Source: Candidatus Aldehydirespiratoraceae bacterium
Lineage (GTDB): Bacteria > Actinomycetota > Acidimicrobiia > Acidimicrobiales > Aldehydirespiratoraceae
Assembly: GCA_965221635.1 (NCBI GenBank)
Contig: OZ244902.1
Span: 479,957 to 543,956 of the forward strand
Reading direction: 5' to 3'
Length of the DNA: 64,000 nt
This document shows, in pieces, positions 18,789 to 48,367 of this stretch. Under the pieces are notes generated by a model. That model worked only from the letters and a program-made list of their open reading frames with translations. It was not told the DNA's origin and did no database searches. A program made the translations under genes and the position numbers. The number at the start of each line of letters is the position of its first letter. Within the stretch, counting starts at the first letter, position 1.

Positions 18789-18850
18789 TCCCCGGGATGG
18801 ATCTTCTCCTACATATAACCGCACCTATGGCGTTCGCCACCCACCACAAC

Positions 18851-18879
18851 TTGACACAATCCCGTTGACGAAGTAGCAT
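18851..18879 (+). promoter_or_regulatory. candidate promoter in the paralog 2-3 spacer
   Basis: TTGACA (18851-18856), a 17-nt spacer, then TAGCAT (18874-18879). It sits inside a 22-nt box conserved with the paralog 1-2 spacer (16371-16392, where the hexamer is TTGGCA). Confidence 0.35.
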
Positions 18880-19043
18880 CAGAAGATGGCACCAAGACCA
18901 CGAGACACAAGGATCCAGCATCCGCAAGTGAGAGAACACGCGAGTCTGGGTGAAAGCAACAGTGGTAGTGAAACGAATGGAGGGAGCTGGTCCTAAGCTG
19001 GTCGGTCGGCTGGCGTTGATGCTCGAATTGGAGGTTTGGTGTT

Positions 19044-22979: not shown

Positions 22980-24050
22980 ATGCCTCCGGTGCGGCCGATG
23001 CTGGCCAGGGCGGTGAAGTCGATCCCTTCAGGCGACATGGCCTTCGAGCCGAAATGGGACGGCTTTCGCTGCATCGTGTTTCGCGACGGCCAAGAGGTGG
23101 AGATCGCCAGTCGCAACACCAGGCCCCTGAGCCGGTACTTCCCCGAGTTGATCGCCCCGTTGAGGGCCATGTTGCCGTCCAAGGCGGTGGTGGACGGTGA
23201 GATCATCGTGAGACGAGGCGACAGCCTGGCATTCGACGACCTGCAGCAGCGAATCCACCCGGCTGCCAGCCGCATCAACCTGTTGGCCGAAGAGACCCCT
23301 GCGGAGGTGGTGCTGTTCGACGTGCTGGCGGCGGGTGACACCAACTTGATGGACGAACCCTTCGGCGAGCGCCGTGCCCGGCTGGAACAGATGGCAGGCA
23401 CTTTCGAGTGGCCGTTGCATCTGGCGCCCTCCACTTGTGACCGTGACGTTGCGGCGGACTGGTATGTGCGTTTCGAGGGTGCCGGGCTCGACGGGCTGAT
23501 CGCCAAACCCCGAGACGGCTTGTACCAGCAGGACAAGCGAGCCCAGTTCAAGCTGAAGCACACCCGCACCGCCGACGTTGTGGTGGCCGGGTATCGCCTC
23601 CACAAGGACGGCGCCGGGGTGGGTTCGCTGGTGGTGGGCCTCCACGACAACGACGGCGTGTTGCACCATTGCGGGGTGGCCACCAGCTTCACCGCCCGCC
23701 GCCGGGCCGAGCTTCTGGCCGAACTGGCCCCGCACGTGTTGCAAACCCCTGCCGAGCGCAGTGCCCACCCATGGGCCAACTGGATGGATCCCGACGCCCA
23801 CCACGGTGGTCAGGTGATGCCCGGCACCCCCAACCGCTGGTCGGCCCAGCGCGCAACCGGCGCCTGGGTGCCCATGCGCATCGAGCTGGTGGTGGAAGTG
23901 AAGTACGAGGCCATCCTCAACGGCCGCTTCCGGGGCACCACCCGCATGGTGCGCCCCCGCCCCGACCGCACCCCCGAATCCTGCCGCTTCGACCAACTCG
24001 AAGAGCCAACCCCCATGCCCCTAAGCGAAGTGCTGACAGCCCCCGGCTAA
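22980..24050 (+). CDS. stand-alone ATP-dependent DNA ligase (LigC-like)
   Basis: Motif I EPKWDGFR, VVDGEIIV, FDVLA, DGLIAKP and FKLKH are all present. Start at ATG 22980 (MPPVRPMLA) or GTG 22965; the ORF opens at 22821. Confidence 0.85.
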   Translation: MPPVRPMLARAVKSIPSGDMAFEPKWDGFRCIVFRDGQEVEIASRNTRPLSRYFPELIAPLRAMLPSKAVVDGEIIVRRGDSLAFDDLQQRIHPAASRINLLAEETPAEVVLFDVLAAGDTNLMDEPFGERRARLEQMAGTFEWPLHLAPSTCDRDVAADWYVRFEGAGLDGLIAKPRDGLYQQDKRAQFKLKHTRTADVVVAGYRLHKDGAGVGSLVVGLHDNDGVLHHCGVATSFTARRRAELLAELAPHVLQTPAERSAHPWANWMDPDAHHGGQVMPGTPNRWSAQRATGAWVPMRIELVVEVKYEAILNGRFRGTTRMVRPRPDRTPESCRFDQLEEPTPMPLSEVLTAPG

Positions 24051-24053
24051 CCG
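23943..24053 (+). repeat. direct repeat copy A (last ~111 nt of the ligase gene)
   Basis: It aligns with 30511-30622 at roughly nine positions in ten (about 11 mismatches plus one 1-nt indel by hand alignment). Similarity starts abruptly at CGCATG. Confidence 0.8.
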
Positions 24054-27000
24054 CGGCACGGCATCCGACCCTACGTCGCGCACATCACAGGTTGTGACGC
24101 TCGACCGGGGACTTGCGGCGCTTCACGGCGACGCCGTGCATCTGGTGCAGACCTGAGGGGCGCCTAGTTGGTTGGGGGGCGTTGGTTGCCGAACTCGGCG
24201 ACTGTTGCGATGCCGTCTCCGTTGGTGTCCGCACGCAACGCCGGGTACTCGGCGGAGGTGCCAAAGTCCCACGCCTGATCCCAGTGGGTGTAGATGGCGC
24301 TGTGGGCGCCGCCACCGATGAGTTCAGCGGTGGTCTTGGCGAAACCGCCTGCGCTTGTGGTGAGCCCGGTGACGGTTTGATCCCAGTAGCTGTAGATGGT
24401 GTCGCTGCTTGAGTCGGCTATGCCGACGAGCCCGCCGGTGTTCTTGTTGCCCACCACGGTTGCCCGCGAGTAGCTGTGCTGAATGCCGAAACCGTTGTTG
24501 ATCCCGGCCAGGCCGCCCACACGGTTCTTTCCCGTCACCCGACCCGCGGCGTAGCTGTCGCTGATGAGCCCACCGCTGTTATGCCCAACAAGGCCACCCA
24601 CACGACGGTCGCCGGCTATGTGACCGGTGGCGTAGCTGTGGGTGATGATGCTGTTGCTGTAGCCCACCAGACCACCCGAAACTCGCCCGGTGGCGGTGAC
24701 ATCAACGGTGCTGTAGCTGTAGGAAACGTGGTTGACGCTCTCACCGATGAGGCCCCCGATCCATCCGCCTGCGGTGATGTTGCCGGTGGAGGAAGCGTGG
24801 GCAACCACCGCCCAGCTCAGCCCGGCCAGCGCGCCGGTGTTGTAGGCACCGCCGGTGATGTCCACGTTGCCCAGATGCAACCGGTTCACCGCCGCGCCGA
24901 GTCGTAGCTCCGCGAACAAGCCCACGTAGTTCTGGTTGCGGTTGATGTGCAGGTTGCGGATCGAGTGGCCGTTGCCTTCCAGGCGGGCGTCGTAGTGGCT
25001 GATGGGTAGCCAGCCCGCGCCGTTGTTCCAGTACAGGTCGCCTGAGTCTGCTTGCCCGCTTTCGTTGGTGTCGAGGTTGATGTCGGCTGTGAGTTCGTAA
25101 CCCGTGCAGCCACTGTCGGGGCATCCCATGGCGTCGTACTGCCCGCCCTTGAACGCTTCGTAGTAGGCAGCGGCGTCACCCGAACCGGGGGTGCCTGTAC
25201 CGGCCGGGTCCCAGCGGATCGCGTTGAGCTGCGCAGGGCTGGTCACCTCGATCAGGCCGTCATCGTCGAGGTCGTGGTCGTTGGAGCGCTGCCGCCCGAA
25301 CTCCAGCCACGAGGCCTGCCCGTCGCTGTTGAAGTCCACCATCAACACGGGGTATTCCTTGGAGTTGCCGAAGTCCCACGCCGGGTTGCTCCAAGTGGCG
25401 AAAATTCCCGAGTACCCGACGGCGCCGACTTCGGTTTCGCTGTCGCCCTGCAGCCCGGTCTGGGTTTGTGCGGCGCCTCCGCCGGCGCTGGTGGTGGTGC
25501 CGGTGGTGGTGCTGTCCCAGTAGGCGTCGCTGTCCACCGATGCCGAATTCTCGGCGAGGCCCACCAAACCGCCAATGTTCGTTCCGGCAGTTACGGGCCC
25601 CGCGGCGTATCCCTCGTGAACGGTTCCGCCGCTCATGCGCCCGATCAGGCCACCCACGCTGGAGCCGCTGCCACCGGGGCCGGTCACCGAACCGAACGCG
25701 TAAGCGAACTCCATGGTGGTGGACTCGGCCAACCCGATCAGCCCGCCACCGAGATGTGACTGCCCAGACGGGGCGTTCACCGTCACGTCGGACTCGGCGT
25801 ATGAACGCGACACCTTGGCGTTGAGCGATCTGCCGATCAGGCCGCCCACGTCGTTTGTGCCGGTGACCGCGGCGTGTGAGTAGCTCTCGTTGATCTCCAC
25901 CTGCGAGTCCTTGAACGTGCCCGCCACGCCGCCGGTGGTGCCCGAGGGCGCGTTGCCAACCACGGTGCCGGTCACCCCGACACGGCTGATCGGTGCTCGA
26001 CCGGTGCCAACAAGCGCGCCCACGTCGGCCTTGTTGCCGGCCACGGTGATGTTCACATCAGCCAGAACCACGTTGCGCAGGCTCGCAGTGGGAGCGGTCT
26101 GCGCGAACAGGCCGTAAGAGTCGTCACCACCGGCGGTTTGGTTGATGAGCAAGTTGGAGATGGTGTGACCGTTGCCGTCGAAGGTGGCTCGGTACTTGGG
26201 CCCTATCGGCGCCCAGCCCTTGCCGGCGTTCCACCACACGCCGCCGTGATCGGTGGCGTCCACGTCACCGTCGCGGTCGGAGTCGAAATCAAGACTCGTG
26301 GTGAGTTCGTAACCGGTACACACCTGATCGTCGGTGAGGGTTTCGTCCTCGTTGCAACCCATGCCGGCCTCCGCTGTGGGGAACGCCGCCAGGTAGGTGG
26401 CACTGTCCGCATCGGCGACCGTGCCGTTGCCGTCGAGATCCCAGCGCAGCGCATTCAACTGGCGAAGACTGCCCACCTCGATCAGACCGTCATCATCGAG
26501 GTCGTAATCCAGAAGTGTCACCACCGTCACCGCAAACGTGGCCGTGCCGGTTTGGCCGTAGTAGTCGGTGGCCACCGCGCTCACCTCGGCGGCGCCGGCC
26601 GCCACCCCGGTGATGGTGATCACTGTTCCGGTGGTGTCCAACACGGCTGTTGCCGCCGTGGAATCCGAACTTGACACTGTGTACGTCAAGGCGCCTTGGG
26701 TGCCCACGTCGAACACCTCCGCACCGGCGGATTCAATGTGCACCGAGGCTTGCCCGGACACCGCAATCGTGTGTGCGGCGATCGGATTGGTCACCGAAGG
26801 GGCGCTGGTGTCTCGCTGGGTTCCGAACTCGGCCCAACTCGAGGCGCCGTCCCCGTCGAAGTCAGCCACCAACGCCGGATATTCGATCTCGTTGCCGAAA
26901 TGCCACGACGAGTCCGCCCAGGTGCTGTAGATCCCGGTGTAGGTGTCGGCGTTGACAGTGGCGTCGGTTTCGGACCGCAACTGCGAGGTGGTTTTGGCGG

Positions 27001-30000
27001 TTCCGCCGCCCGCGCTGGTGGCCGCAGTGGTGGCAACGGAATCCCAGTACGCGTCCGAATCCACCGTTGCGCCGCCTGAGGCGCTTCCCACGAGCCCCCC
27101 TAGATCACCCGGAAAGGCCGCGTAGTTGCCGTACTGGACCGAACCCGCCGCGAATCCCTCACGAACCTGGCCACCATCTGCTGACCCGACCAATCCACCC
27201 ACATCGGTGCTGGCATTCCACGGCGCGGACACGGCGGACTTGGAATAGCCGTACTCGATGGTTGCGCCGTTGGCGAAGCCCACAAGCCCACCCACTCGGT
27301 GCCGGCCTCCGTCGGAGTTTGTGTTCGATACCGGTCCGGTGGAGTAACTGCGAGTGAGGTTGATGCTTGATGCTCGGCCCAGCACACCGCCCACGTCGTT
27401 GCTGCCTGTCACCGCGGCGGTTGAGTAACTGTCGGCCATCGTCACCGAGAGTCCTCTCAGGATTCCCACGATGCCGCCTGTGGTGCCCTGATTGCCGGTG
27501 CCCGACACCGTCCCGGTCACACCAACACGGCTGATCGCCGCACGGGCGGTGCCGGCCAGAGCGCCCACGTCGGGCTTGTCTCCCACCACGGAAATGTCCA
27601 CGTCGGCCAAAACCAAGCCGCTTATGGCCGCGCCAACACCGATGTGTTCGAACAGGCCGAAGGACTCGTTGCCGCCTTCGGGTTCGTCGATGTACAGGTT
27701 TGAGATCGTGTGCCCGTTGCCCTTGAACGTCACGCTGTATGAGTTCGAGTCGTCACCGATCGGATCCCAGCCCTTGCCGCTGTTCCAGTAGGCCCCGGCG
27801 TGATCGGCGGCGTCCACATCCCCGTCTCCGTCACTGTCGAAGTCAAGGTCCGACATCAGTTCGTAGCCGTCACAACCGTCGGTGGGGCAGCCCATGGCAG
27901 TGATCGGGCTCGGGAATGCCGTCCGGTAAGCAGCAGCATTGCCGGCTGCATCGGCGGTGCCGTTGCCGTTGAGGTCCCAACGCATGGCATTGAGCTGAGC
28001 CAGGTCGCGAATCTCAAGCAAACCGTCGTTGTCGCCGTCGTAGTCGACGTTGGTGCTCACCGACACGTTCACGGTGGTGCTCACGCTCGCACCGTCGGCG
28101 TCAGTCGCGGTGATCACCAGCGGGCGATCTCCCGAGGCGTTCGCGATCACGTTCACCGTTGCGGTGGCCGCGTCGACTCTCGCAGAGTGATACGACTCGT
28201 GCAGGGTCGACACTGAGTAGTTGAGCGTGGTGCCGTCGGGATCGGTGAACACCGCGGCGCCGGAGGTTTCGAGAGGGATTGAACCCTGCCCGTACAAGGG
28301 AAGGCTCAGCGTGGCGACCGGGTTTGTGACGGTCGGGAATCCGTGGCCCGAAGCCACCGGGAACTCCACGAAGACGGCGCCGTGAGAATCGGTGGCCGTG
28401 ACCCGAATCGTGGCCGTGCCCTTGGCCACACCGGTGATGGTGACCGTGTCGGTGGCGCTGTTCAACGCCACGGTGGCCACCGAGGTGTCCGAAGAGGTGA
28501 CGCTGTAGGTGGGCTTGTCGTTGCTGCAGTATCCGAACACCGGGTTTGTGCCCGCCAGGGCAACCGTCGCGGTGGCGCCCACCGACACGTGCTGACCGGT
28601 GATGTCCCGGTTCTTGTGTACGCGCGTGTTGACGCGCTGGGTGCCGAACTCCGACCAAGTGGCGGCGCCGTCACCGTTGAAGTCCGCCACAATAGCGGGA
28701 TACACACAAGACGTGCCGAAATCCCATTCCGCTGTTGTCCAATCGCTGTAAATCCCCGTGTAGCCGGCAGCGGCAACGGTGGTGTTGGTGTCGATTTGCA
28801 GCTCCGAGGTGGTCTTGCCGGTGCCGCCGTCGCTGGTGGACTGACCCGTTGAGGTGGTGTCCCAATACGAGTCGGCGCTCACAACGCTGGAGTTGTCGAA
28901 CTTGTAACCCAGCAATCCGCCGACATCACCGGATGGGCCGTCGGACACCGCGCCGGTGGCGAAGGACTCGGAGATTTCCGAGAGGGTCAACTGTCCCGCC
29001 AGGCCGCCCACGTATCCGCTGGTGCTCTGAGTGACCGACACCGCACCCGTTGCATAGGACTGGATGACTTTGCTGTAGGCGTACACATCGCCGATGAGGC
29101 CGCCTACTCGGCAGAGCTTGCAGTTGCTTTCGGTGACCGCGCCGGTGGCGTAGCTGCGCTTCGCCGTGGAGTTGCGCAGTGTTCCGATCAGTCCGCCTGC
29201 GGCCACCGCGCCGTCCGAAACGTGGACGGTCACCGAGGCGGTGGAGTAACTGTCGGTGGTGGACGCGGCGTCTGCTCCGTCGGGGGTTCTTTGGTATCCG
29301 ACCAGTCCACCTGCGTGGGTCAGAGATCCGAGGGGAGGCGACAGGTTGCTCACGTTCACCGCGCCGGTGGAGTACACGGCGCGCAACTTGCCGCTGCTGT
29401 GCCCGGCCAGCGCCCCCACCTTCAGGTTGGCTCCGCTCGCGGTTATCGAAACGTCCGGCAGGCCGAGATGACGCACCTCGCCAGCAGTGCCGACCTTGGC
29501 GAACAAGCCGAGTTCGGTGAGGGAGGCTGCGTCTTGTGCGTTGATGTAGAGGTTCGAAATGGTGCGGTTGTTGCCGTCCAGGATGGCGGTGTATTCGCCG
29601 CCGATTGGCGTCCATCCCGCGCCGGAGTTCCAGTACGCGCCGTTGTGATCCGATGCGTCCACGTCGCCGTCGTTGTCCGAGTCGAAGTCCAGGTTGGCGT
29701 TGAGTTCGTAGCCGGTGCATGTGGGAGTCACCGCCTGCGAGTCACATCCCATCGCCGGCGCGGCGTTGGGGAACGCAGCGTCATAAGACGCCTGGTCCGC
29801 GGCTGCCACGGTGCCATCGCCGTCCAGATCCCAGCGCAACGCATTGAACTGCGCCAGATTGGCGATCTCTATGAGGCCGTCGTCGTCGGTGTCGTAATCG
29901 TTGGACAAGGCTTGAGCACCCAGCGGCACCGGTGTCGCGACAACAAGCAAAGCCGCCACCAACGCCATGGCCGCCGAGGCCACGGCCAGCTGCACCCACC

Positions 30001-30510
30001 AAACCCGGCATCTGGGTGGCAGACTGATTCCGATCACTTCGCGATCTACAGTGTCTCGGGCATTATCCCACATTGTTTGACCTCCACAAACAGACTGGCT
30101 GGCAACGTAGCAACGCCCTCGGCTCTTGTAAAGTCGAACGTTCTAGGGTCAGGTGTTGTGGTGGATGAGGGAGAGGTATGGTCTGATCAAAATACCAAGT
30201 AGAAGTTATTTGTCCGGATTTAGAGTGTTGCCAAGAGAACTATTGTCTTGATTAGTGATTGTTGAGTAACACTCATTTGCTTTGGCCAACAAAATCCCAG
30301 CACAAGGCGGAGAAGTCACACTAATGTTGTGTTGCAGAGATCAATAATTTGACAAGCGGATTGTGGGGACTGAGCCAATTCTGCGGGCGAGCCGAGTCTC
30401 GAGACACGCCCTGCAATCATGCAGTTTCAGGCCCACCAGGATGCCGTGCGGCAAAGAACAGTGACCGCAACCAAGAATCGGCGACGCAAACCCGAAAGAC
30501 CCTGCCATGG
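24054..30510. mobile_element. putative inserted cassette bounded by the ligase-3'-end direct repeats (no recombinase inside)
   Basis: Its content is the 1969-aa gene plus its AT-rich upstream region, bracketed by the 23943-24053 and 30511-30622 repeats. Mobility is an inference only. Confidence 0.35.
24164..30073 (-). CDS. giant secreted four-module protein (GLUG-motif beta-helix repeats, Asp-rich Ca-binding-like motifs, Ig-like domains)
   Basis: 1969 aa with an N-terminal hydrophobic signal/anchor (VQLAVASAAMALVAALLVVATPVPLGAQA). There are four copies of the module DYD.DDDGLIE...L.QLNA.RWDL.G.GT...MGC...C.GYEL...LDFDSD.DGDVDA.DH...YWN.G.GW.PIG...GNGHTISNLYI, followed by many (V/A)GGL(V/I/A)G repeats and YWD...KTT.EL...YPAL.ADFNGDG. 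Big/cadherin-like segments lie between modules. GGAGG sits 8 nt before the ATG. Confidence 0.85.
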   Translation of the reverse strand: MWDNARDTVDREVIGISLPPRCRVWWVQLAVASAAMALVAALLVVATPVPLGAQALSNDYDTDDDGLIEIANLAQFNALRWDLDGDGTVAAADQASYDAAFPNAAPAMGCDSQAVTPTCTGYELNANLDFDSDNDGDVDASDHNGAYWNSGAGWTPIGGEYTAILDGNNRTISNLYINAQDAASLTELGLFAKVGTAGEVRHLGLPDVSITASGANLKVGALAGHSSGKLRAVYSTGAVNVSNLSPPLGSLTHAGGLVGYQRTPDGADAASTTDSYSTASVTVHVSDGAVAAGGLIGTLRNSTAKRSYATGAVTESNCKLCRVGGLIGDVYAYSKVIQSYATGAVSVTQSTSGYVGGLAGQLTLSEISESFATGAVSDGPSGDVGGLLGYKFDNSSVVSADSYWDTTSTGQSTSDGGTGKTTSELQIDTNTTVAAAGYTGIYSDWTTAEWDFGTSCVYPAIVADFNGDGAATWSEFGTQRVNTRVHKNRDITGQHVSVGATATVALAGTNPVFGYCSNDKPTYSVTSSDTSVATVALNSATDTVTITGVAKGTATIRVTATDSHGAVFVEFPVASGHGFPTVTNPVATLSLPLYGQGSIPLETSGAAVFTDPDGTTLNYSVSTLHESYHSARVDAATATVNVIANASGDRPLVITATDADGASVSTTVNVSVSTNVDYDGDNDGLLEIRDLAQLNAMRWDLNGNGTADAAGNAAAYRTAFPSPITAMGCPTDGCDGYELMSDLDFDSDGDGDVDAADHAGAYWNSGKGWDPIGDDSNSYSVTFKGNGHTISNLYIDEPEGGNESFGLFEHIGVGAAISGLVLADVDISVVGDKPDVGALAGTARAAISRVGVTGTVSGTGNQGTTGGIVGILRGLSVTMADSYSTAAVTGSNDVGGVLGRASSINLTRSYSTGPVSNTNSDGGRHRVGGLVGFANGATIEYGYSKSAVSAPWNASTDVGGLVGSADGGQVREGFAAGSVQYGNYAAFPGDLGGLVGSASGGATVDSDAYWDSVATTAATSAGGGTAKTTSQLRSETDATVNADTYTGIYSTWADSSWHFGNEIEYPALVADFDGDGASSWAEFGTQRDTSAPSVTNPIAAHTIAVSGQASVHIESAGAEVFDVGTQGALTYTVSSSDSTAATAVLDTTGTVITITGVAAGAAEVSAVATDYYGQTGTATFAVTVVTLLDYDLDDDGLIEVGSLRQLNALRWDLDGNGTVADADSATYLAAFPTAEAGMGCNEDETLTDDQVCTGYELTTSLDFDSDRDGDVDATDHGGVWWNAGKGWAPIGPKYRATFDGNGHTISNLLINQTAGGDDSYGLFAQTAPTASLRNVVLADVNITVAGNKADVGALVGTGRAPISRVGVTGTVVGNAPSGTTGGVAGTFKDSQVEINESYSHAAVTGTNDVGGLIGRSLNAKVSRSYAESDVTVNAPSGQSHLGGGLIGLAESTTMEFAYAFGSVTGPGGSGSSVGGLIGRMSGGTVHEGYAAGPVTAGTNIGGLVGLAENSASVDSDAYWDSTTTGTTTSAGGGAAQTQTGLQGDSETEVGAVGYSGIFATWSNPAWDFGNSKEYPVLMVDFNSDGQASWLEFGRQRSNDHDLDDDGLIEVTSPAQLNAIRWDPAGTGTPGSGDAAAYYEAFKGGQYDAMGCPDSGCTGYELTADINLDTNESGQADSGDLYWNNGAGWLPISHYDARLEGNGHSIRNLHINRNQNYVGLFAELRLGAAVNRLHLGNVDITGGAYNTGALAGLSWAVVAHASSTGNITAGGWIGGLIGESVNHVSYSYSTVDVTATGRVSGGLVGYSNSIITHSYATGHIAGDRRVGGLVGHNSGGLISDSYAAGRVTGKNRVGGLAGINNGFGIQHSYSRATVVGNKNTGGLVGIADSSSDTIYSYWDQTVTGLTTSAGGFAKTTAELIGGGAHSAIYTHWDQAWDFGTSAEYPALRADTNGDGIATVAEFGNQRPPTN

Positions 30511-30622
30511 CGCATGATGCGCCCCCACCCGTACCGCACCCCCGAATGCTGCCGCTTCGACCAACTCGATAGAGCCAGCCCCCATGCCGCCAAGCGAAGT
30601 GCTGACAGCCTCCGGCTAAGCG
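30511..30622 (+). pseudogene. frameshifted relic of a DNA-ligase 3' end (direct repeat copy B)
   Basis: It translates RMMRPHPYRTPECCRFDQLD, against RMVRPRPDRTPESCRFDQLE in the ligase. A 1-nt insertion (cgaTagagcc) then breaks the frame. There is no ligase-like sequence upstream of 30511. Confidence 0.7.
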
Positions 30623-30646
30623 AGCCACATCGAAGGCCTGCGATAT

Positions 30647-30907
30647 CTAGGCGCGAGACTGCGATCCAAGCGGCAGATCCTCGTTGATCCCAACAACCTT
30701 GAGGTCGGGCACCCGTTCCACATCAGCCAGAGCCGACCGCACCGCCTGTGACAGCGATTCCGCCTCCCGGTCGAAACCCAGGTACTGCACGCCGTCGCGG
30801 CTGCCGAGCAGAGCGTCGTCGCAGCCGGCTTCGAACAGCGCGTCCGCCACGGCGTCCGTGTGAAGGTCGGCACCTTCCACGATCAACAGAAAATTGAACG
30901 AATCCAT
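30647..30907 (-). CDS. small acidic hypothetical protein
   Basis: 86 aa from ATG 30907 (MDSFNFLLIVEGADL...), with GGGAGG 6 nt upstream. It lies downstream of and co-oriented with the HTH-ImmA/IrrE gene. No family recognised with confidence. Confidence 0.5.
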   Translation of the reverse strand: MDSFNFLLIVEGADLHTDAVADALFEAGCDDALLGSRDGVQYLGFDREAESLSQAVRSALADVERVPDLKVVGINEDLPLGSQSRA

Positions 30908-31110
30908 CCTCAACCTCCCTCAGCCATGTGCTCGCACTCCCGAAGCGCAGCCAGCAGCCAACGCGCATGATCAGCAGGACTTCGCGGCGTAGAGGGCCAC
31001 TGACCCCTGGGTGGCGCCTCCGACACTACCCGGTGCTTTAGCCGGTCTCGAGTGTTGCGGGGTGTGTGCTTGTGGGAGTGGGAATCCCAGCCTGACCTAG
31101 GGGTGCTTGG

Positions 31111-32187
31111 CTAGGTGTTGGCGGCGCGTTGTGGCTGTGGTGGGTTCGCCACAGGTTGTAGGTGGCGGCGGGCTTGCAGGAACGGGCTGTTTGGGGTGCC
31201 TGGTGAGAACCCTGTGATGCTGTTCACCTCTTGGGGGCTGAGCCCCTGACTGAGCATTGCCTCACCGATGTTGGCTGTGAGCCTGGGGCGCTCGGGCGTG
31301 AGTTGGTCGCTCAACGGTTCCTGACGCCGCCAACCCTTTGCGCTGAAACGCTTGTAGAGGTTGGTGCGCTCACGGACCGTGATCACCTCCAGCCGGTGCG
31401 CGCGCTCGATCAGGGCCTGCATCGAGACACCCCAGTAGCGCTTCAGGTCGTGCAACTTGCCGGTGGTGAGGTTCCGCAGTTGGGAGCGAATCAGGTTGGC
31501 CGGCATCAAGAACTCCGCCGCGAAATCGGTGGCCTCGACCTCCGGGTCGTCGGGCACACCTTGGCTGTGAAGGCACAGGTGCCCGAGTTCGTGCGCCAGC
31601 GTCAGTCGACGGCGGTCCGTTGGCGCTGCAATGTTGAGCATCACCACCGGATGGGTACCGCTCCATTGGGACAAGCCGTCCACGCGCCGTGTTCCGAAAT
31701 CCGAGTCAATGATGACGCAGCCTGCAGCTTCCATCCACTCGGCCACGCTTCGAACGGGACCTTGCGGCATACGCCACTCGGCGCGCAGGATTCGCGCCGC
31801 GGTCGCGGGTTCGTATTCGAATGGATCAAGCCAAGGGAGGGTGAGATCACATCGAATGTCGATCTGTTCGCCGACCTTGTCCACATGCAGCCGGTACAGG
31901 TTCAGCTGGGCCTCCAGCCGTCGCCACGCCGAAGGCTTCGCCGTGGCGCGTCGGCGCATGTGAGCATGGGCGGCCAGCGCACCTTCAAGGCGCCTCGCAC
32001 GTCGCAGGAGATCCGCCGTGACTCCCAATTCGGTAGCGATCCGCGACAGAGCGTCATCAGAAACATCGCGCAGGTCGTTCTCGTAGCGCGACAGCGCCGC
32101 TTGGGTGATGCCCAACCGGTCGGACAGGTCCAGTTGGGTCAGCCCTCGTGCTCTGCGGGCAGTAGCGATGGCCTCGCCCAAACTCAT
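31111..32187 (-). CDS. XRE-family HTH fused to ImmA/IrrE (M78, COG2856) zinc metallopeptidase
   Basis: Start re-picked at ATG 32187 (MSLGEAIATARRARGLTQLDLSDRLGITQAALSRYENDLR is the HTH). A downstream HEXXH (LTLAHELGHLCLH) sits in ImmA/IrrE context. The 559-aa ORF to 32790 is rejected because it runs antisense through hipB. Confidence 0.8.
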   Translation of the reverse strand: MSLGEAIATARRARGLTQLDLSDRLGITQAALSRYENDLRDVSDDALSRIATELGVTADLLRRARRLEGALAAHAHMRRRATAKPSAWRRLEAQLNLYRLHVDKVGEQIDIRCDLTLPWLDPFEYEPATAARILRAEWRMPQGPVRSVAEWMEAAGCVIIDSDFGTRRVDGLSQWSGTHPVVMLNIAAPTDRRRLTLAHELGHLCLHSQGVPDDPEVEATDFAAEFLMPANLIRSQLRNLTTGKLHDLKRYWGVSMQALIERAHRLEVITVRERTNLYKRFSAKGWRRQEPLSDQLTPERPRLTANIGEAMLSQGLSPQEVNSITGFSPGTPNSPFLQARRHLQPVANPPQPQRAANT

Positions 32188-32320
32188 GGCCCAGAATAAA
32201 CCCGGCCCCGAGTAACGGTTGGCCGGGCGGCAAGGTGTCGTTGGTGCTGGTGGCGGGCCTGGACTGGCTTGCGGGTCTTGTATGGATCCGGGGCTTGCGG
32301 AGGATGCGCGGCTCAGCGAT

Positions 32321-32339
32321 CTGTGAAGTATCTTCAGAG
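32321..32339. promoter_or_regulatory. palindromic candidate operator in the divergent ImmA / hipBA control region
   Basis: CTGTGAAGTATCTTCAGAG has 8-nt arms with one mismatch around a central T; the inner arms TGAAG/CTTCA are perfect. It is followed by TAGTAT (32341-32346), only 9 nt before the hipB ATG at 32356. Confidence 0.4.
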
Positions 32340-32355
32340 ATAGTATGCTTTCGAT

Positions 32356-32682
32356 ATGAGTGGGGATCGACCTTTGTTGCCTCAGACTTTGGAGGCGGTT
32401 CGGTTGCTTGGCAGTCAGGTGGCTTTGGCTCGGCGTGAGCGGCGTTGGACACTTGCGGAGCTCGCCGAGCGGGTGGGGGTGTCGGTGGTGACGATCCGCA
32501 AGGTGGAGCGGGGAGATCCCAGCGTCGCTCTGGGCACCGCCCTGGAAGCAGCAGCGCTGGTGGGAGTCGTGCTGTTTGACCCCGACCCCACACGTCGAGC
32601 CTTGGAGGCCGAGATCGTACGGGCACGCCTGGCGTTGCTTCCTGCCACCGTGAGACCTCGCAAAGTCGATGACAACTTCTGA
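32356..32682 (+). CDS. hipB: HipB-like XRE-family antitoxin
   Basis: 108 aa with the HTH WTLAELAERVGVSVVTIRKVERGD. It overlaps the downstream hipA by 14 nt. Confidence 0.75.
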   Translation: MSGDRPLLPQTLEAVRLLGSQVALARRERRWTLAELAERVGVSVVTIRKVERGDPSVALGTALEAAALVGVVLFDPDPTRRALEAEIVRARLALLPATVRPRKVDDNF

Positions 32683-33919
32683 CCCCATCGCCGAAGCGAA
32701 CAGCGCCTTCGTGTGGGTGTGGCTGCCGGGCCACAGCGAGCCCGTGGTGGCGGGCAGGTTGGACGACCGGGGCTCGGTGGTGACCTTCACCTACGCGGCC
32801 AGCTACCTGGAATCCCCCGAGGCGATTGCGCTGTACGAACCCGAGCTGGCGCTGCGGCGTGGAGAACTGGTTCCTCGTTCGGGAGAGATGGCCGGATGCA
32901 TTGCGGATGCCGGCCCCGACGCCTGGGGGCGGCGAGTGATCGAGTATCGCCGCACCGGCGGATACGGGCAACTGTCGCCACTGGCCTATCTGCTGGAGTC
33001 CGGGTCGAATCGAATCGGCGCGCTCGACTTCCAGCGCTCGGCCACCCACTACGAACCTCGGGGCGCTGACACTGCGCCACTGAACGAGCTGGCCGAGGCA
33101 GCCGACCGGTTCGAGTCGGGTGAACCGCTCACCCCTGCGCTCGACAGGGCACTGCTGCACGGAACCTCGGTTGGCGGGGCACGCCCCAAGGCGCTTCTCA
33201 CGGACGCGGATCGCCAACTGATCGCGAAGTTCTCGTCATCGACTGATCCCTATCCGGTGGTGAAGGCCGAGTTCGTCGCTATGGAACTTGCACGCCGGGT
33301 CGGAATAGACGTTGCGCCGGTGGAACTCGTGACCGCGCTCGGCAAGGCGGTACTCCTGGTACACCGGTTCGACCGCCCAAGCGGGGGTGCTCGACGCATG
33401 ATCGTGTCCGCGCTCACGATGTTGGACGCACACGACGCCCTGGGCATCGCAGGGCGCTACTGCACCTACGTGGATCTGGCTCACCGCATCCGGGAGCGCT
33501 TCACCGATGCGGACGCCACCCTGCGCGAGTTGTTCTCACGGATCGTGTTGAACGTCCTGGTCGGAAACACAGACGACCACGCCCGCAACCACTCGGCGTT
33601 CTGGGACGGCACGAACCTGACGCTCACACCCGCCTACGACATCTGTCCCCAACTGCGCGCTGGCGGCGAGGCTGCCCAGGCAATGGCGTTCGGCCCCGAC
33701 GGTGACCGACTGAGCCAAGTGGCGCGATGTGTGACCCACGCAGGCCAATACCACCTCACAACAACCCAGGCACGCGAGATCGTCAACAGCCAAGTGGAAA
33801 CAATCCACGACCACTGGCACGAGGTGTGCGACCTGGCCGCTCTAAACAAACCTGACCGGCAACGACTGTGGGAACGGCAGTTCCTCAACCCCTACGCACT
33901 AGAAGGCCACCACCACTGA
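32669..33919 (+). CDS. hipA: HipA-family serine/threonine kinase toxin
   Basis: 416 aa. It has an N-terminal coupling domain, then GTSVGGARPKALL and the catalytic-loop motif LVGNTDDHARNHSAF. Confidence 0.85.
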   Translation: MTTSDPIAEANSAFVWVWLPGHSEPVVAGRLDDRGSVVTFTYAASYLESPEAIALYEPELALRRGELVPRSGEMAGCIADAGPDAWGRRVIEYRRTGGYGQLSPLAYLLESGSNRIGALDFQRSATHYEPRGADTAPLNELAEAADRFESGEPLTPALDRALLHGTSVGGARPKALLTDADRQLIAKFSSSTDPYPVVKAEFVAMELARRVGIDVAPVELVTALGKAVLLVHRFDRPSGGARRMIVSALTMLDAHDALGIAGRYCTYVDLAHRIRERFTDADATLRELFSRIVLNVLVGNTDDHARNHSAFWDGTNLTLTPAYDICPQLRAGGEAAQAMAFGPDGDRLSQVARCVTHAGQYHLTTTQAREIVNSQVETIHDHWHEVCDLAALNKPDRQRLWERQFLNPYALEGHHH

Positions 33920-33952
33920 TCTGAGCACCAAGGTGAATCAGTGGCCTTGCCC

Positions 33953-34120
33953 TCAACCGCCGAACTCGGTGGCATCGTCGTGTTCCTCTATTCCCGGAAG
34001 CCTCTCGAGCCCCCTGTCAAAGCCTCTTTGCTCCCGGCGCGTGCGTTCCAGGTCCTCAAGCACATCGCTGCCAGCAAGACGGACTCGACGCTCAGCCTCC
34101 ACCCCTGGCAGCATCAACAT
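33953..34120 (-). CDS. 55-aa charged ORF translationally coupled to the methyltransferase (absent from the ORF track, under 60 aa)
   Basis: Hand translation gives MLMLPGVEAERRVRLAGSDVLEDLERTRREQRGFDRGLERLPGIEEHDDATEFGG*. Its ATG (34120-34118) shares a base with the methyltransferase TGA (34122-34120). Confidence 0.35.
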   Translation of the reverse strand: MLMLPGVEAERRVRLAGSDVLEDLERTRREQRGFDRGLERLPGIEEHDDATEFGG

Positions 34121-35067
34121 CACGGGATGCGGTCTCGAACCTCTTGTCCTCGATCACGCCCGTGGTGCTCGGGGAGGGTTACGGGGGGTAGGTGGGCTAG
34201 TTGGGTGGTTAGGTTGGTGTAGTAGGGCTCGTGTGCTTCTATGCCTATTGCTTTGCGGTGGCGTTCGAGGGCTGCGAAGGCTGTTGTGCCTGATCCGATG
34301 AAGGGATCCAGCACGACGTCGCCGGGGTCGGTGAACAGGTCTATGAACCAGCCCGGCAACCACCTGGGAAAGGCGGCGCTGTGTCCCCTGTTGGCGCACT
34401 CCGTGGCGCCGTGCAGCACATTGTTGGGATACACCTTGCTGCGACCCTGCCAGTTTTGCACTCGCTTGCCGAAACCGCTGCCCACTCGCGACTCGTCTCG
34501 CTGCTGATCGGTGGCGCTGAGGTTGCTCATGCGCTGCTTGGACCAGTCACCCACAGGGATCATCACCGCGTCCTGGTTCATCTTGAACTGACGCTGCTTG
34601 TTGAACTGCAACAACCTCTCCCACGCATCCCTGAACCGGTTGGGCCACTTGCCGGGGTAGCTGTTTTTCTTGTGCCACACGAACTCCTCTGTCCACAACC
34701 ACCCCTGAGCCCTCATGGCGAGGATCAACTCCAACACGTACGTGTGACGCTCTCCGTTGACCGCCGGCTCCTTGATGTTCAACACGAACGTGCCGGACGG
34801 TTTCAGCACCCGGCGAAGCTGCCCGGCGATCGGCATGAACCAATCCACGTAGTGCTGCGGACTGACGCCGCCGTAGGAGGATGCACGCTGCTTCGCGTAG
34901 GGCGGCGACGTAACCACCAGGTCGACCGAATCGTCGGGCAACCCGGTGAGCAACTCCCGGCAGTCGCCATGGAGAATCGTTGCTTGAGGCATCAAATCTC
35001 GATCCGTCGCGTCGTTCTGTGACCATCCCCGCTGGGGAAGCTTCGAGCGAAGCTCGCCTCCGCTCAC
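34120..35067 (-). CDS. beta-class DNA methyltransferase (N4-cytosine or N6-adenine), no adjacent endonuclease
   Basis: Motif IV DLVVTSPPYA precedes motif I VLDPFIGSGTTAFAA, which is the beta permutation. The likely start is ATG 34992 (MPQATILHGDCRELL). Confidence 0.8.
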   Translation of the reverse strand: MSGGELRSKLPQRGWSQNDATDRDLMPQATILHGDCRELLTGLPDDSVDLVVTSPPYAKQRASSYGGVSPQHYVDWFMPIAGQLRRVLKPSGTFVLNIKEPAVNGERHTYVLELILAMRAQGWLWTEEFVWHKKNSYPGKWPNRFRDAWERLLQFNKQRQFKMNQDAVMIPVGDWSKQRMSNLSATDQQRDESRVGSGFGKRVQNWQGRSKVYPNNVLHGATECANRGHSAAFPRWLPGWFIDLFTDPGDVVLDPFIGSGTTAFAALERHRKAIGIEAHEPYYTNLTTQLAHLPPVTLPEHHGRDRGQEVRDRIP

Positions 35068-35161: not shown

Positions 35162-36025
35162 TCAGGATGGGGCTAGTTGGTGGGCTCTTGTGGCCAGGGC
35201 TCCGGCGCCTATGGCCTGGCAGAGTTGGTCGAAGCCTTGGCGGGGGCCTGTCCATTCCATTTCGTCGACCGTGGCGGACACCGGCGCTTCGAGGTCGACG
35301 GTGGCTATGTGGCGAAACAGCTTGGCGTCGTCCATGCGCTCGCGCAGCGTGTCGGCGAGGCGGGCGGCTCCTCGCACGTTCACGTCCCAGTCGTCGGACG
35401 ACGCCGGGATTCGCTCCAGGTGCGGATAGAAGCTCAACACCGCGGCCGCGGACTTGGCGCCCCAGCCGGGCAGACCCTCGAAACCGTCGGCGGAGTCGCC
35501 CACCAAACCGAGGTAGTCCGGGATCGACTCGGGCGCCACACCGAACTTGTCCACCACACCGGCGTAGTCGCAGATCACATCACGGCGACGGTCGTGCTGC
35601 ACCACCCGCCCGTCGGTGCTCACACACTGCGCCAAGTCCTTGTCGGGAGTGCAAATCACCACCTGCGACACCCGATCATCGGCCGCTGCCATCGACGCAG
35701 CCGCCGCAAGGGCGTCGTCGGCTTCGTAGCGGACTTGGGGCCACACCGCGAACCCTGCAAGCTCGAGCAGGTGCTCCACCTCGTCGAACTGGGCGCGCAG
35801 ATCCGGGTCCACGCCGCTGCCGTCCTTGTAGCCCTCGAGCAGGTCGTTGCGAAAGCTCTCGATCACGTGATCGGTGGCAATGCCGATGTGGGTGGCGCCG
35901 TCTTGCACCAGATCCAGCACCGTCTTGAGCACCCCTCTCTGGGCGCCCCGGCGAGCGTCACGGTTGTTTCGGGCGTAATGGAAGCGGAACAGCTCGTAGG
36001 TGCCGTCCACCAGGTGAACTCTCAC
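35162..36025 (-). CDS. 5'-3' exonuclease (FEN / Pol I N-terminal-domain family)
   Basis: 287 aa. It has LVDGTYELFR, YEADDALAA and the H3TH motif GDSADGFEGLPGWGAKSAAAVL. The GTG start overlaps the mce stop (GTGA). Confidence 0.8.
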   Translation of the reverse strand: MRVHLVDGTYELFRFHYARNNRDARRGAQRGVLKTVLDLVQDGATHIGIATDHVIESFRNDLLEGYKDGSGVDPDLRAQFDEVEHLLELAGFAVWPQVRYEADDALAAAASMAAADDRVSQVVICTPDKDLAQCVSTDGRVVQHDRRRDVICDYAGVVDKFGVAPESIPDYLGLVGDSADGFEGLPGWGAKSAAAVLSFYPHLERIPASSDDWDVNVRGAARLADTLRERMDDAKLFRHIATVDLEAPVSATVDEMEWTGPRQGFDQLCQAIGAGALATRAHQLAPS

Positions 36026-36438: not shown

Positions 36439-36604
36439 GCCCCCACCCTACCCAACCCCTGCCGACGCCCTCATCCCGTGAGCCCGGGAACGCCACCGCC
36501 TCCGCACCCCGGTCAACCATGAGGCGCCTGCTCGCCGATATCGATCCTCCCGCAAGCAGCTGGACAAGATCCAGCACCCGCGCGGCCGCACGACCTTGTG
36601 CTGA

Positions 36605-48209: not shown

Positions 48210-48367
48210 CCACCAACAATACCCACCAAACCCCCCAAAGGCCCCAAAACCACCGCGCATCCCAAAGACCAACCAACCAACCGCGCAGCCCGCGACCAAG
48301 ACCAACACCAAGTCCCCAAAGGCACCCAGGGGGCAGCAAAGCCAAGGCGGGCGGGCCAGAAAATCAA

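What the first reader, a model, noticed from the sequence alone, without database searches (positions are those of the whole stretch)
23943..30622. ~111-nt direct repeats (ligase 3' end and a frameshifted copy) bracket the giant-protein gene: signature of site-specific insertion
The last ~111 nt of the DNA-ligase gene (23943-24053, including its stop codon) recur at 30511-30622 with about 90 percent identity by hand alignment. A 1-nt insertion destroys the reading frame of the second copy. Similarity begins abruptly at CGCATG in both copies, and nothing ligase-like lies upstream of 30511. Between the copies there is only the 1969-aa gene, in opposite orientation, with its AT-rich upstream region. 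This is the geometry left when an element integrates into the 3' end of a gene and supplies a replacement end, as in attL/attR-type duplication. Here the target is a protein-coding ligase gene rather than a tRNA, and no integrase is present in or next to the segment. Either the recombinase was lost or acted in trans, or the real element continues to about 35.1 kb (ImmA/IrrE-HTH, hipBA, methyltransferase).
Basis: partly seen in the sequence, partly recalled or inferred. Interest (0 to 1): 0.7.

Follow-up and report, generated by a model that had tools for sequence, protein, structure and literature searches.

The report
Decayed ligase-end duplicate marks insertion scar
A 117-base copy of the end of a DNA-ligase gene, now broken by mutations, marks the far edge of an old 6.5-kb insertion carrying one giant surface-protein gene; it is a real but fairly ordinary scar, with no recombinase and no sign of current mobility.

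Summary
Window 23943-24059 (the last 108 nt of the ligase gene plus about 9 nt) recurs at 30511-30628. The match is 105 of 118 columns, with one inserted T at 30570, and there are only two copies in 64 kb. Between them lie only the 1969-aa GLUG-motif gene and 437 nt of 50% GC upstream DNA.

Six outgroup ligases polarise the differences. At least 6 of 9 coding changes arose in the distal copy, at conserved residues. Both copies share lineage-specific states, so the distal copy is a decaying duplicate of this genome's own ligase end, not a paralog remnant.

In five syntenic relatives the ligase is followed directly by a 5'-3' exonuclease gene, in one case with a methyltransferase between. The block 24.05-34.12 kb is therefore lineage-specific: the giant gene, the repeat, and a toxin-antitoxin/defence islet.

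No recombinase is encoded anywhere in the window. There is no third repeat copy, and none of 66 other ligase loci carries such a duplicate.

The geometry is that of a single-crossover insertion. Whether an integrase (since lost) or homology-anchored recombination made it cannot be settled. I lean slightly towards the latter. Interest is low.

The parts
22980..24050 (+). ATP-dependent DNA ligase (LigC-like, 356 aa), intact; the target gene
   Evidence: Pfam DNA_ligase_A_M and DNA_ligase_A_C. It is 100% identical to database protein P0001 of 356 aa. It aligns full length with 29 orthologs and keeps the invariant KWDG motif and the other invariant columns.
23943..24059 (+). Repeat copy A: the last 35 codons plus stop of the ligase and about 9 nt beyond; the functional copy
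   Evidence: It carries the outgroup (ancestral) state at 6 or more of the 9 coding sites that differ from copy B.
24051..24163 (.). 113-nt spacer between the convergent stops of the ligase and the giant gene
   Evidence: Sequence read. It has no homology to the post-ligase DNA of six relatives and is unique in the window.
24164..30073 (-). 1969-aa secreted or surface protein with GLUG motifs, an N-terminal signal/TM segment, EF-hand/dockerin-like DxDxDG motifs and three roughly 510-600-aa internal repeats; the only gene between the repeat copies
   Evidence: Pfam Glug; internal repeats; N-terminus. GC3 is 0.80, like the neighbouring genes. A 75% paralog P0123 exists in the same genome, and a 75% homolog P0122 sits elsewhere with unrelated flanks.
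30074..30510 (.). 437-nt low-GC (about 50%) upstream region of the giant gene; no ORF, no Pfam hit, no Rfam hit
   Evidence: No arm-type repeated motifs are shared with the other inner flank.
30511..30628 (+). Repeat copy B: non-coding, decaying duplicate of the ligase 3' end (frameshifting T at 30570; former stop at 30617-30619)
   Evidence: Changes derived in copy B hit conserved residues: V to M, R to H, D to Y, S to C and L to P. The differences are 2 synonymous and 7 non-synonymous, which equals the neutral expectation of 0.74 non-synonymous.
30647..30913 (-). 88-aa ORF matching defence candidate PDC-M06B; first gene of the toxin-antitoxin/defence islet beyond copy B
   Evidence: PADLOC hit at 1.1e-15; GC3 0.76; no Pfam hit.
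31111..32187 (-). XRE-HTH plus ImmA/IrrE (M78) metallopeptidase, RmrA-like (358 aa as called in the source genome)
   Evidence: Pfam; PADLOC RmrA at 7e-51; P0241 at 100% identity. Its homologs sit at unrelated loci in L090 and L091.
32356..33919 (+). hipB-like HTH (32356-32682) and HipA kinase (32669-33919) toxin-antitoxin pair
   Evidence: Pfam HTH_3, HipA_C and Couple_hipA.
34120..35067 (-). N6/N4 DNA methyltransferase; probably ancestral at this position, so it marks the end of the lineage-specific block
   Evidence: Pfam. A 74%-identical gene lies between the ligase and the exonuclease in L005.
35162..36025 (-). 5'-3' exonuclease; the conserved right-hand neighbour of the ligase in relatives
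   Evidence: Pfam. Synteny in L001, L002, L004, L005 and L006 at 72-77% amino-acid identity.

Best explanation
The repeat is the scar of one old insertion event. It is not a working mobile element.

A DNA segment carrying the ligase 3' end, the convergent giant GLUG-repeat gene and that gene's 437-nt upstream region entered the chromosome through the ligase gene. I think the most likely route is recombination anchored in ligase homology, with DNA from a sister strain that had different content at this variable spot. Two forms are possible:
- RecA-type single-crossover integration of a circular molecule.
- Homology-facilitated illegitimate recombination of a linear fragment, with homologous exchange in or upstream of the ligase and an illegitimate joint at 30510/30511.

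Either form leaves a complete ligase followed by the incoming cargo. The resident last 108 nt of the ligase, plus a few bases, are pushed 6.57 kb downstream, next to the resident downstream genes (orf88, HTH-M78, HipBA).

The displaced copy was nearly identical when the event happened. It has since drifted neutrally to 12 substitutions and 1 indel.

Shown here:
- the duplication itself;
- its polarity of decay;
- the intact ligase;
- the absence of the whole 24.05-34.12 kb block from the orthologous site of relatives;
- the absence of any recombinase gene or third repeat.

Inferred: the single-crossover or one-sided-homology mechanism, and the origin from a sister strain.
For: - **The repeat is real and unique.** There are only two copies in the window.
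- **Both copies share states found in no outgroup.** These are W to P in the near-invariant VRWRPDR motif, CAA at codon 18, L-E-E-P, and ACA at codon 32. The duplicate therefore comes from this lineage's own ligase. At least 6 of the 9 coding differences are derived in copy B at conserved sites, so the copies were about 97% or more identical at the event.
- **The substitution spectrum is neutral.** It is 7 non-synonymous to 2 synonymous, against an expected non-synonymous fraction of 0.74. This differs from the e14/icd att duplication, which shows 2 non-synonymous to 9 synonymous (Fisher p = 0.02).
- **The repeat ends within about 9 nt of the stop codon.** That is the boundary between a conserved core gene and a variable spot, where homology between two strains with different cargo would stop.
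- **Copy B separates two unrelated cargo modules.** On one side is the giant gene, on the other the toxin-antitoxin/defence islet. All of this DNA is missing between ligase and exonuclease in L001, L002, L004 and L006, and between ligase and methyltransferase in L005.
- **No recombinase is encoded.** None is found in the 64 kb or in six frames of 30060-31115. Only 550 nt inside the bracket is non-coding.
- **No sign of a dedicated attachment site.** None of 66 other ligase loci carries a duplicated ligase end. No attP-like copy turned up in IMG/VR.
- **The giant gene looks native.** It has host-like GC3 of 0.80 and belongs to a family with several paralogs in the same genome.
- **Precedent.** Displaced 3' ends left by homology-facilitated illegitimate recombination are described for Vibrio cholerae T6SS arrays and for Rhs loci (PMC5361080).
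Against: - Homology-facilitated illegitimate recombination is rare compared with ordinary homologous recombination (PMC5361080).
- No microhomology is evident at the 30510/30511 joint when it is compared with the sequence upstream of copy A.
- No genome was found in which the giant gene sits next to the ligase without a repeat, which is the postulated donor arrangement. The nearest ligase in any database is only 73% identical, so this test has no power.
- Natural competence, or any other DNA-uptake route, is unknown for this uncultured Acidimicrobiia lineage.
- Across bacteria generally, islands bracketed by a duplicated gene 3' end are usually made by integrases, and integrase-less derivatives (CIMEs) are common (PMC7563491).
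Confidence: 0.4

Rival explanations
1. Site-specific integration. On this view a small integrative element, whose attP carried the ligase 3' end, was inserted by a tyrosine or serine integrase into the ligase gene. The integrase and any other element genes were later deleted, or always acted in trans. This would leave a CIME-like unit of one cargo gene between attL (copy A) and a decaying attR (copy B). The islet at 30.6-34.1 kb could be an older element in tandem (accretion).
For: - The geometry is the classical one: the target gene's 3' end is restored including its stop codon, and direct repeats bracket the insert.
- The repeat length of 117 nt is of the same order as the e14/icd duplication, which is 165 nt at 92.8% identity.
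- The insert is absent from the orthologous site in five relatives.
- CIMEs of 1.2-13 kb that carry only cargo genes are common derivatives of ICEs and IMEs, and they occur at the 3' ends of protein-coding genes (PMC7563491).
- An HTH-ImmA/IrrE gene lies just beyond copy B. Genes of this type regulate some integrative elements; this is from my own knowledge of ICEBs1 ImmR/ImmA.
- A second giant-gene locus, L094, is also bracketed by a 106-nt direct repeat.
Against: - No recombinase gene or fragment is present in the bracket, next to it, or anywhere in the 64 kb.
- Only 550 nt of non-coding DNA lies inside the bracket.
- No third repeat exists to close a tandem array.
- The methyltransferase at the supposed far end is ancestral in L005.
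- No other occupied or duplicated ligase 3' end was found in 66 loci.
- No attP-like copy was found in viral contigs.
- No arm-type repeats are present in the inner flanks.
- The cargo is a host-like gene with paralogs in the same genome.
- The L094 repeat has an unrelated sequence, so one integrase specificity cannot explain both loci.
Confidence: 0.33
2. Tandem duplication followed by partial deletion. On this view the giant gene was already native downstream of the ligase. A tandem duplication ran from ligase codon 321 to a point upstream of the giant gene, and the second giant copy was then deleted. Only the second ligase 3' fragment remained.
For: - Tandem duplications are the most frequent bacterial rearrangement (established knowledge).
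- The two copies were near-identical at origin.
- Giant genes of this family do occur in tandem, as in L003 and L098.
- The window also has a three-gene tandem array of ankyrin genes.
Against: - It needs two events.
- The deletion would have to start by coincidence within about 9 nt of the ligase stop codon, out of roughly 6.5 kb of possible positions.
- No trace of a second giant copy remains beyond 30628.
Confidence: 0.1
3. Capture of DNA at a widely staggered double-strand break. On this view two nicks about 117 nt apart were filled in after end-joining, producing a 117-bp target-site duplication around captured DNA.
For: - No recombinase and no terminal inverted repeats are needed.
- Direct repeats with unrelated sequences at two giant-gene loci (the window and L094) would fit a target-derived duplication.
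Against: - I know of no described bacterial mechanism that gives target duplications of about 100 nt; known transposition duplications are 2-15 bp (my own knowledge).
- The coincidence of the duplication's end with the gene's end would be unexplained.
- Three of the five testable giant-gene loci lack such repeats.
Confidence: 0.05
4. Copy B is the remnant of a second, full-length ligase paralog that decayed.
For: ATP-dependent ligases are often multi-copy in Actinobacteria (my own knowledge).
Against: - Nothing ligase-like lies upstream of 30511 at the DNA or protein level; the similarity starts abruptly against 50% GC non-coding DNA.
- Copy B shares the resident gene's lineage-specific substitutions, down to synonymous codon choices.
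- No relative has a second ligase at this locus.
Confidence: 0.03
5. The repeat is a chance similarity or an assembly artefact.
For: None.
Against: - The E-value is 1.5e-36 within the window.
- The copies differ by 11%, so they cannot be a collapsed or mis-joined identical repeat.
- The database proteins of the source contig (3.59 Mb) match the window's genes on both sides at 100% identity.
Confidence: 0.01

Closest known systems
Cryptic prophage e14 (and phage 21) integrated in the icd gene of E. coli K-12, with the icdC pseudogene as the displaced 3' end
   Same: A protein-coding gene is the target and its 3' end is duplicated. The proximal copy completes the gene. The distal copy is a non-functional fragment on the far side of the insert. 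In MG1655 the repeat is 165 nt at 92.8% identity without indels.
   Different: - e14 carries intE and xisE and many phage genes between the repeats. Here there is one cellular-type gene and no recombinase.
- The e14 differences are 9 synonymous to 2 conservative changes, meaning two functional alleles. Here they are 2 synonymous to 7 non-synonymous plus a frameshift, almost all derived in the distal copy.
CIMEs (cis-mobilizable elements): decayed ICE or IME derivatives that keep att sites but no recombination or transfer genes, at the 3' ends of fda, rpsI, rpmG and rplL in streptococci (PMC7563491)
   Same: Cargo bracketed by direct repeats at the 3' end of a protein-coding gene, with no integrase. 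The size of 6.45 kb falls within the reported 1.2-13 kb.
   Different: - CIMEs are recognised by sharing att sites with known ICEs or IMEs, usually found in tandem with one. No related autonomous element or shared att site was found here.
- One repeat copy here is already degraded by 11% plus an indel.
Displacement of 3' ends by homology-facilitated illegitimate recombination: orphan immunity arrays in V. cholerae T6SS clusters and C-terminal displacement in Rhs loci (PMC5361080 and references therein)
   Same: Incoming DNA is anchored in a conserved upstream gene. It brings a new 3' end plus cargo and shifts the resident 3' end and its downstream genes further along. No integrase is involved.
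   Different: - In those systems the new and old 3' ends encode different toxin domains, and repeated rounds of displacement build arrays. Here the two ends were near-identical and the event happened once.
- The mechanism is inferred there too, not demonstrated.
Actinomycete integrative elements (pSAM2, SLP1 and other AICEs) with long att identity segments
   Same: The host is also an actinobacterium, and the att identity blocks are tens to about 110 bp long, covering a gene's 3' end (from my own knowledge; not tested here).
   Different: Those elements target tRNA genes and encode int, xis and replication/transfer genes. None of these is present here.

Membership tests
Integrase-mediated integrative element (prophage, ICE, IME or genomic island) with attL/attR | Direct repeats bracket the insert, and one repeat is the 3' end of the target gene, which stays intact | tested here: met
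   The ligase is full length and keeps the invariant residues.
Integrase-mediated integrative element (prophage, ICE, IME or genomic island) with attL/attR | A tyrosine or serine recombinase is encoded inside or next to the bracketed segment | tested here: not met
   Pfam on all codon-biased ORFs of the 64 kb and on six frames of 30060-31115 found no recombinase domain.
Integrase-mediated integrative element (prophage, ICE, IME or genomic island) with attL/attR | The insert is absent from the orthologous site of related genomes (empty site) | tested here: met
   L001, L002, L004 and L006 have ligase followed by exonuclease. L005 has ligase, methyltransferase, exonuclease. These relatives share only 71-73% ligase identity, so the exact empty junction cannot be read.
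Integrase-mediated integrative element (prophage, ICE, IME or genomic island) with attL/attR | The same attachment site is used recurrently, or an attP copy exists on a free or related element | tested here: not met
   None of 66 ligase loci with 500 nt or more downstream has a second ligase end. No relevant hit in IMG/VR; the single 20-nt match is chance.
Integrase-mediated integrative element (prophage, ICE, IME or genomic island) with attL/attR | Excision to a circle, leaving a restored attB | not testable with these tools
   This needs read data from the source sample or an experiment.
CIME (decayed integrative element that retains its att sites) | Lacks all recombination and transfer genes but keeps both att sites | tested here: inconclusive
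   No such genes are present. Both repeat copies are present, but copy B has 12 substitutions and 1 indel, so whether it could still act as an att site is unknown.
CIME (decayed integrative element that retains its att sites) | Derives from, or shares att sites with, an identifiable ICE or IME | tested here: not met
   No related element was found.
Homology-facilitated illegitimate recombination scar (3'-end displacement) | One end of the new DNA lies in a conserved anchor gene, and the resident 3' end is shifted downstream and stays attached to the resident downstream genes | tested here: inconclusive
   The geometry fits. However, the DNA after copy B shows no detectable homology to the post-ligase DNA of relatives, and nor does the DNA after copy A.
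Homology-facilitated illegitimate recombination scar (3'-end displacement) | Short microhomology at the illegitimate joint | tested here: inconclusive
   None is evident between ...GCCATGG|CGCATG at copy B and ...CACCACC|CGCATG at copy A. The donor sequence beyond the joint is unknown.
Homology-facilitated illegitimate recombination scar (3'-end displacement) | A donor-type arrangement (ligase next to the giant gene, no repeat) exists in a related strain | not testable with these tools
   The nearest ligase in 5.8 billion proteins is 73% identical. The source genome could not be retrieved.
Transposon or IS insertion with target-site duplication | A transposase, terminal inverted repeats and a short duplication of 2-15 bp | tested here: not met
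   The duplication is 117 bp. No inverted repeat pairs the insert ends. No transposase domain was found.
Pseudogene remnant of a second ligase paralog | Further ligase-derived sequence upstream of the fragment, and divergence typical of paralogs | tested here: not met
   Nothing ligase-like lies upstream. Copy B shares the lineage-specific substitutions of the resident gene.

The most novel reading that the evidence does not exclude
Giant GLUG-repeat surface-protein genes of these Acidimicrobiia may move as single-gene cassettes, without a recombinase of their own. On this reading they insert convergently behind a resident gene and leave direct repeats of about 105-118 nt derived from the target.

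Two of the five testable loci show the same architecture with unrelated repeat sequences:
- Window: repeat, 437 nt, giant gene, 105 nt, repeat.
- L094: repeat, 542 nt, giant gene, 251 nt, repeat.

This would imply either a trans-acting system with flexible target choice or an insertion process that produces unusually long target duplications.
Probability: 0.06. Interest if true: 0.6.

Novelty: new member of a known kind. Interest (0 to 1): 0.2.

Why it matters
The importance is modest.

The locus is a clean, datable example of how a variable spot behind a core gene gathers cargo. The core region here runs ligase, exonuclease, recR, dnaX. The cargo is a giant surface protein plus a toxin-antitoxin/defence islet, in an uncultured and probably host-associated Acidimicrobiia lineage.

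It also shows that a duplicated gene 3' end alone does not prove integrase action. Polarising the differences with outgroups, and comparing the ratio of synonymous to non-synonymous changes with a true att duplication (e14/icd), separates decay of an identical duplicate from two diverged functional alleles.

If the parallel in L094 turns out to be more than coincidence, it would point to a way in which giant adhesin-like genes spread among symbiont genomes.

Tried and rejected
- **Third repeat copy.** A copy that would close a larger or tandem element near 34.1, 35.1 or 36.4-37.8 kb was sought. Smith-Waterman scores were within the shuffled range. A 14-nt inverted match at 35222-35235 lies inside the conserved exonuclease gene and is not colinear, so it is chance.
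- **Integrase remnants.** Six-frame Pfam on 30060-31115 gave nothing. All other ORFs gave nothing.
- **The source genome.** The 100% proteins P0001 and P0123 are not on record in the contig index, so the paralog's flanks and the rest of the genome could not be examined.
- **Close relatives for an exact empty site.** None exists. The best ligase match is 73%, the best giant-gene match 75%, and the best HTH-M78 match 73%.
- **Ligase 3' end as a recurrent hotspot.** I surveyed 88 loci, of which 66 had 500 nt or more downstream and 24 had 3 kb or more. None carries a duplicate.
- **attP in viral contigs.** There were no ligase-fragment hits. One 20-nt exact match in IMG/VR is chance.
- **Which flank is ancestral.** Neither the DNA after copy A nor the DNA after copy B aligns with the post-ligase DNA of six relatives.
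- **Arm-type or shared motifs in the inner flanks.** Not above shuffles.
- **Promoter and terminator scan.** Not above shuffles.
- **RNA families.** There were no Rfam hits in 29900-31150.
- **Flanks of the 75% giant homolog in L003.** Homology stops at the coding sequence.
- **A mobile module of HTH-M78 plus copy B.** Homologs of the HTH-M78 gene sit at unrelated loci with a different partner gene and no ligase fragment.
- **Nature of the L094 repeat.** There was no Pfam or Rfam hit and no codon bias.

Full report
**1. The observation**

The pair is real. MAFFT, the repeat finder and blastn agree on the same coordinates:
- Copy A is 23943-24059. It covers the last 35 codons and the TAA stop of the ligase, plus about 9 nt.
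- Copy B is 30511-30628.
- They match at 105 of 118 columns, with 12 substitutions and one extra T at 30570 in copy B. The E-value in the window against itself is 1.5e-36.

It is one of only two dispersed repeats of about 100 nt in the 64 kb. Similarity begins abruptly at CGCATG. The whole ligase, as DNA or protein, finds nothing else in the window. There is no third copy.

Between the copies lie three things: a 113-nt spacer, the 1969-aa ORF on the minus strand, and 437 nt of about 50% GC DNA. The ORFs that overlap copy B have no codon-position GC bias and no domain hit.

**2. The genes**

| Coordinates | Strand | Gene |
|---|---|---|
| 21570-22742 | - | epoxide hydrolase |
| 22980-24050 | + | LigC-like ATP-dependent ligase, 356 aa, intact |
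| 24164-30073 | - | secreted GLUG-motif giant protein |
| 30647-30913 | - | 88-aa ORF like defence candidate PDC-M06B |
| 31111-32187 | - | XRE-HTH plus ImmA/IrrE peptidase, RmrA-like |
| 32356-33919 | + | hipB-like gene and hipA |
| 34120-35067 | - | N6/N4 methyltransferase |
| 35162 onward | - | 5'-3' exonuclease, glyoxalase, a 1.3-kb low-GC insert, recR, dnaX, SRP RNA, tRNA-Ser |

No integrase, recombinase or transposase domain occurs in any codon-biased ORF of the window. None occurs in six frames of 30060-31115 either.

**3. Relatives**

The ligase's best match outside its own genome is 73% identical, among 5.8 billion proteins. The lineage therefore has no close sequenced relative. The source contig (3.59 Mb) could not be retrieved.

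Five syntenic Acidimicrobiia loci were obtained.
- In L001, L002, L004 and L006 the order is hydrolase, ligase, exonuclease, glyoxalase, recR, dnaX. Only 120-580 nt separate the ligase from the exonuclease.
- In L005 a methyltransferase lies between ligase and exonuclease. It is 74% identical to the window's methyltransferase, the same level as the flanking core genes.

The methyltransferase is therefore probably ancestral, and the lineage-specific block is 24051-34119. Copy B lies in the middle of that block. It separates the giant gene from the toxin-antitoxin/defence islet.

**4. What copy B is**

I aligned the last 36 codons of copy A, of frame-corrected copy B, and of six outgroup ligases.
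- Both copies share states seen in no outgroup: CCC (Pro) in place of the near-invariant Trp of VRWRPDR, CAA at codon 18, CTC-GAA-GAG-CCA, and ACA at codon 32. Copy B therefore derives from this lineage's own gene and not from a paralog or a distant donor.
- Of the nine coding differences, at least six are derived in copy B. Five of these change residues that are conserved in all or nearly all orthologs: V to M, R to H, D to Y, S to C and L to P. At most three are derived in copy A.
- The split of 7 non-synonymous to 2 synonymous equals the neutral expectation of 0.74 non-synonymous.

As a yardstick I measured the textbook case in E. coli K-12. The last 165 nt of icd and the icdC pseudogene flank prophage e14. 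They are 92.8% identical with no indel, they differ by 9 synonymous and 2 conservative changes, and intE and xisE lie between them. The two spectra differ (Fisher p = 0.02).

The e14 repeat therefore records two functional alleles, one carried by the phage and one by the host. The ligase repeat records neutral decay of a copy that was nearly identical when it was made.

**5. Mechanism**

Three facts constrain it.
- The ligase is intact and the duplicate is on the far side of the insert. This is the product of a single reciprocal exchange within the last roughly 117 bp, or of an exchange anchored in the ligase with an illegitimate joint at 30510/30511.
- The repeat ends within about 9 nt of the stop codon, at the border between core gene and variable spot. 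A dedicated attP that carries just the gene's end would explain this. So would homology between two strains that differ in what follows the ligase. A tandem duplication followed by a deletion would explain it only by coincidence.
- There is no recombinase. Only 550 nt inside the bracket is non-coding. No arm-type repeats were found. There is no third repeat. No other ligase locus among 66 carries a duplicated end. No attP-like copy was found in viral contigs. The cargo is a host-like gene (GC3 0.80) whose family has several paralogs in the same genome.

I therefore rank the explanations as follows:
- Homology-anchored insertion from a sister strain: 0.40. This means either RecA-mediated integration of a circle or homology-facilitated illegitimate recombination. 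A comparable mechanism was proposed for displaced 3' ends in V. cholerae T6SS arrays and Rhs loci (PMC5361080).
- An integrase-made insertion that later lost its recombination genes, which would be CIME-like (PMC7563491): 0.33.
- Tandem duplication plus deletion: 0.10.
- Capture at a staggered break: 0.05.
- Paralog remnant: 0.03.
- Artefact: 0.01.

The duplication, its polarity, and the absence of both recombinase and relatives' insert are shown. The enzyme that made the joint is inferred and remains open.

**6. A parallel worth recording**

I looked at the flanks of other members of the giant-gene family.
- **L094/L095:** this is a different 3.37-Mb Acidimicrobiia genome, with paralog P0133 of 2718 aa. 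The only long-range repeat in the 20-kb locus is a direct pair of 106 nt at 81% identity, and it brackets the giant gene (repeat, 542 nt, gene, 251 nt, repeat). The window shows the same arrangement (repeat, 437 nt, gene, 105 nt, repeat). The sequence is unrelated to the ligase repeat. It has no domain, RNA-family or codon signal, and that locus also lacks an integrase.
- **L096 and L098:** no such repeat.
- **L093:** flanked by arrays of inverted repeats instead.
- **L003:** has too little flank to test.

Two of five is suggestive but not a pattern. I carry it as the novel reading, at about 6%.

**7. Verdict**

The finding is a genuine molecular fossil of an insertion into the 3' end of a protein-coding gene. 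It belongs to a known kind of feature, namely displaced 3' ends at integration or recombination hot spots. Protein-coding targets are well known (icd, fda, rpsI, rpmG), so the target itself is not novel.

Its attL/attR interpretation is possible but unsupported beyond the geometry. Its alternative boundary at 35.1 kb should be 34.12 kb, and that boundary does not define a single repeat-bounded element. Interest is 0.2.

Noticed in passing
L094:5355-5458 and L094:14409-14514 (identical in L095): A 106-nt direct repeat at 81% identity brackets another giant GLUG-family gene (P0133, 2718 aa) in a different Acidimicrobiia genome. The geometry is the same as in the window, and the sequence is unrelated to the ligase repeat. 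It contains the hairpin GCTGCA-TTCC-TGCAGC. There is no Pfam or Rfam hit and no integrase in that locus.
   Followed up: partly
window 13394-13497 (+) and 48367-48470 (-): A 104-nt inverted pair at 91% identity, both copies intergenic. The unit starts GGCGGGCGGGGCC and ends GGCCACCCGCCCGCC, so it has terminal inverted repeats and could fold as a long hairpin. It looks like a MITE/REP-type element or a structured RNA. One copy sits at the edge of the ankyrin gene array.
   Followed up: partly
window 14101-21194: Three tandem paralogous ankyrin-repeat genes (14101-16299, about 16.6-18.8 kb, and 19044-21194) at 70-73% nucleotide identity, with low-GC 5' regions. The block at 13.2-21.5 kb is replaced by other genes in L005. 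Ankyrin arrays suggest a host-associated lifestyle, such as that of a sponge symbiont; this is inference.
   Followed up: partly
window 36439-37776: A second lineage-specific insert, between the glyoxalase gene and recR, absent from L001, L002, L004 and L006. Its GC is about 0.55. It holds one 245-aa ORF (36605-37342, minus strand) with no Pfam or PADLOC hit and weak codon bias.
   Followed up: partly
window 23955-23957 and 30523-30525: The near-invariant Trp of the ligase C-terminal motif VRWRPDR (Trp in 90% or more of 30 orthologs) is Pro in this genome, in both repeat copies. The change therefore predates the duplication. Its effect on ligase function is unknown.
   Followed up: no
L093:331-5881 and L093:12865-15090: Giant paralog P0140 is flanked on both sides by arrays of roughly 180-250-nt repeats in inverted orientation (65-93% identity). 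These partly overlap called genes that have no Pfam hit.
   Followed up: no
L094:15093-15542: A 149-aa aminotransferase fragment: the C-terminal third, including the PLP-lysine motif SKxxxLxGxRxGY, with its 5' two-thirds missing. It lies next to the giant gene and is another rearrangement scar in a giant-gene neighbourhood.
   Followed up: no
window 31111-32790 compared with L090:9363-11041 and L091:413-2352: In relatives the HTH-M78 (RmrA-like) gene is preceded by an overlapping gene of about 210 aa, possibly the toxin partner. That gene has no homolog in the window. Here the gene is instead flanked by the PDC-M06B-like orf88 and by a divergent hipBA pair. The 559-aa ORF in the mechanical ORF list is an over-extension of the 358-aa gene.
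   Followed up: partly
window 46504-46549 and 46575-46620: A 46-nt repeat at 85% identity, with copies 71 nt apart start to start, in the intergenic region between the isochorismatase and NAPRTase genes.
   Followed up: no
window 61423-63960: An 845-aa minus-strand ORF with Ig-like domains (Big_9, He_PIG, Big_2) and C-terminal SLH domains. This is a second large cell-surface protein gene. It may belong to the same expanded surface-protein repertoire as paralogs P0124 and P0126.
   Followed up: no
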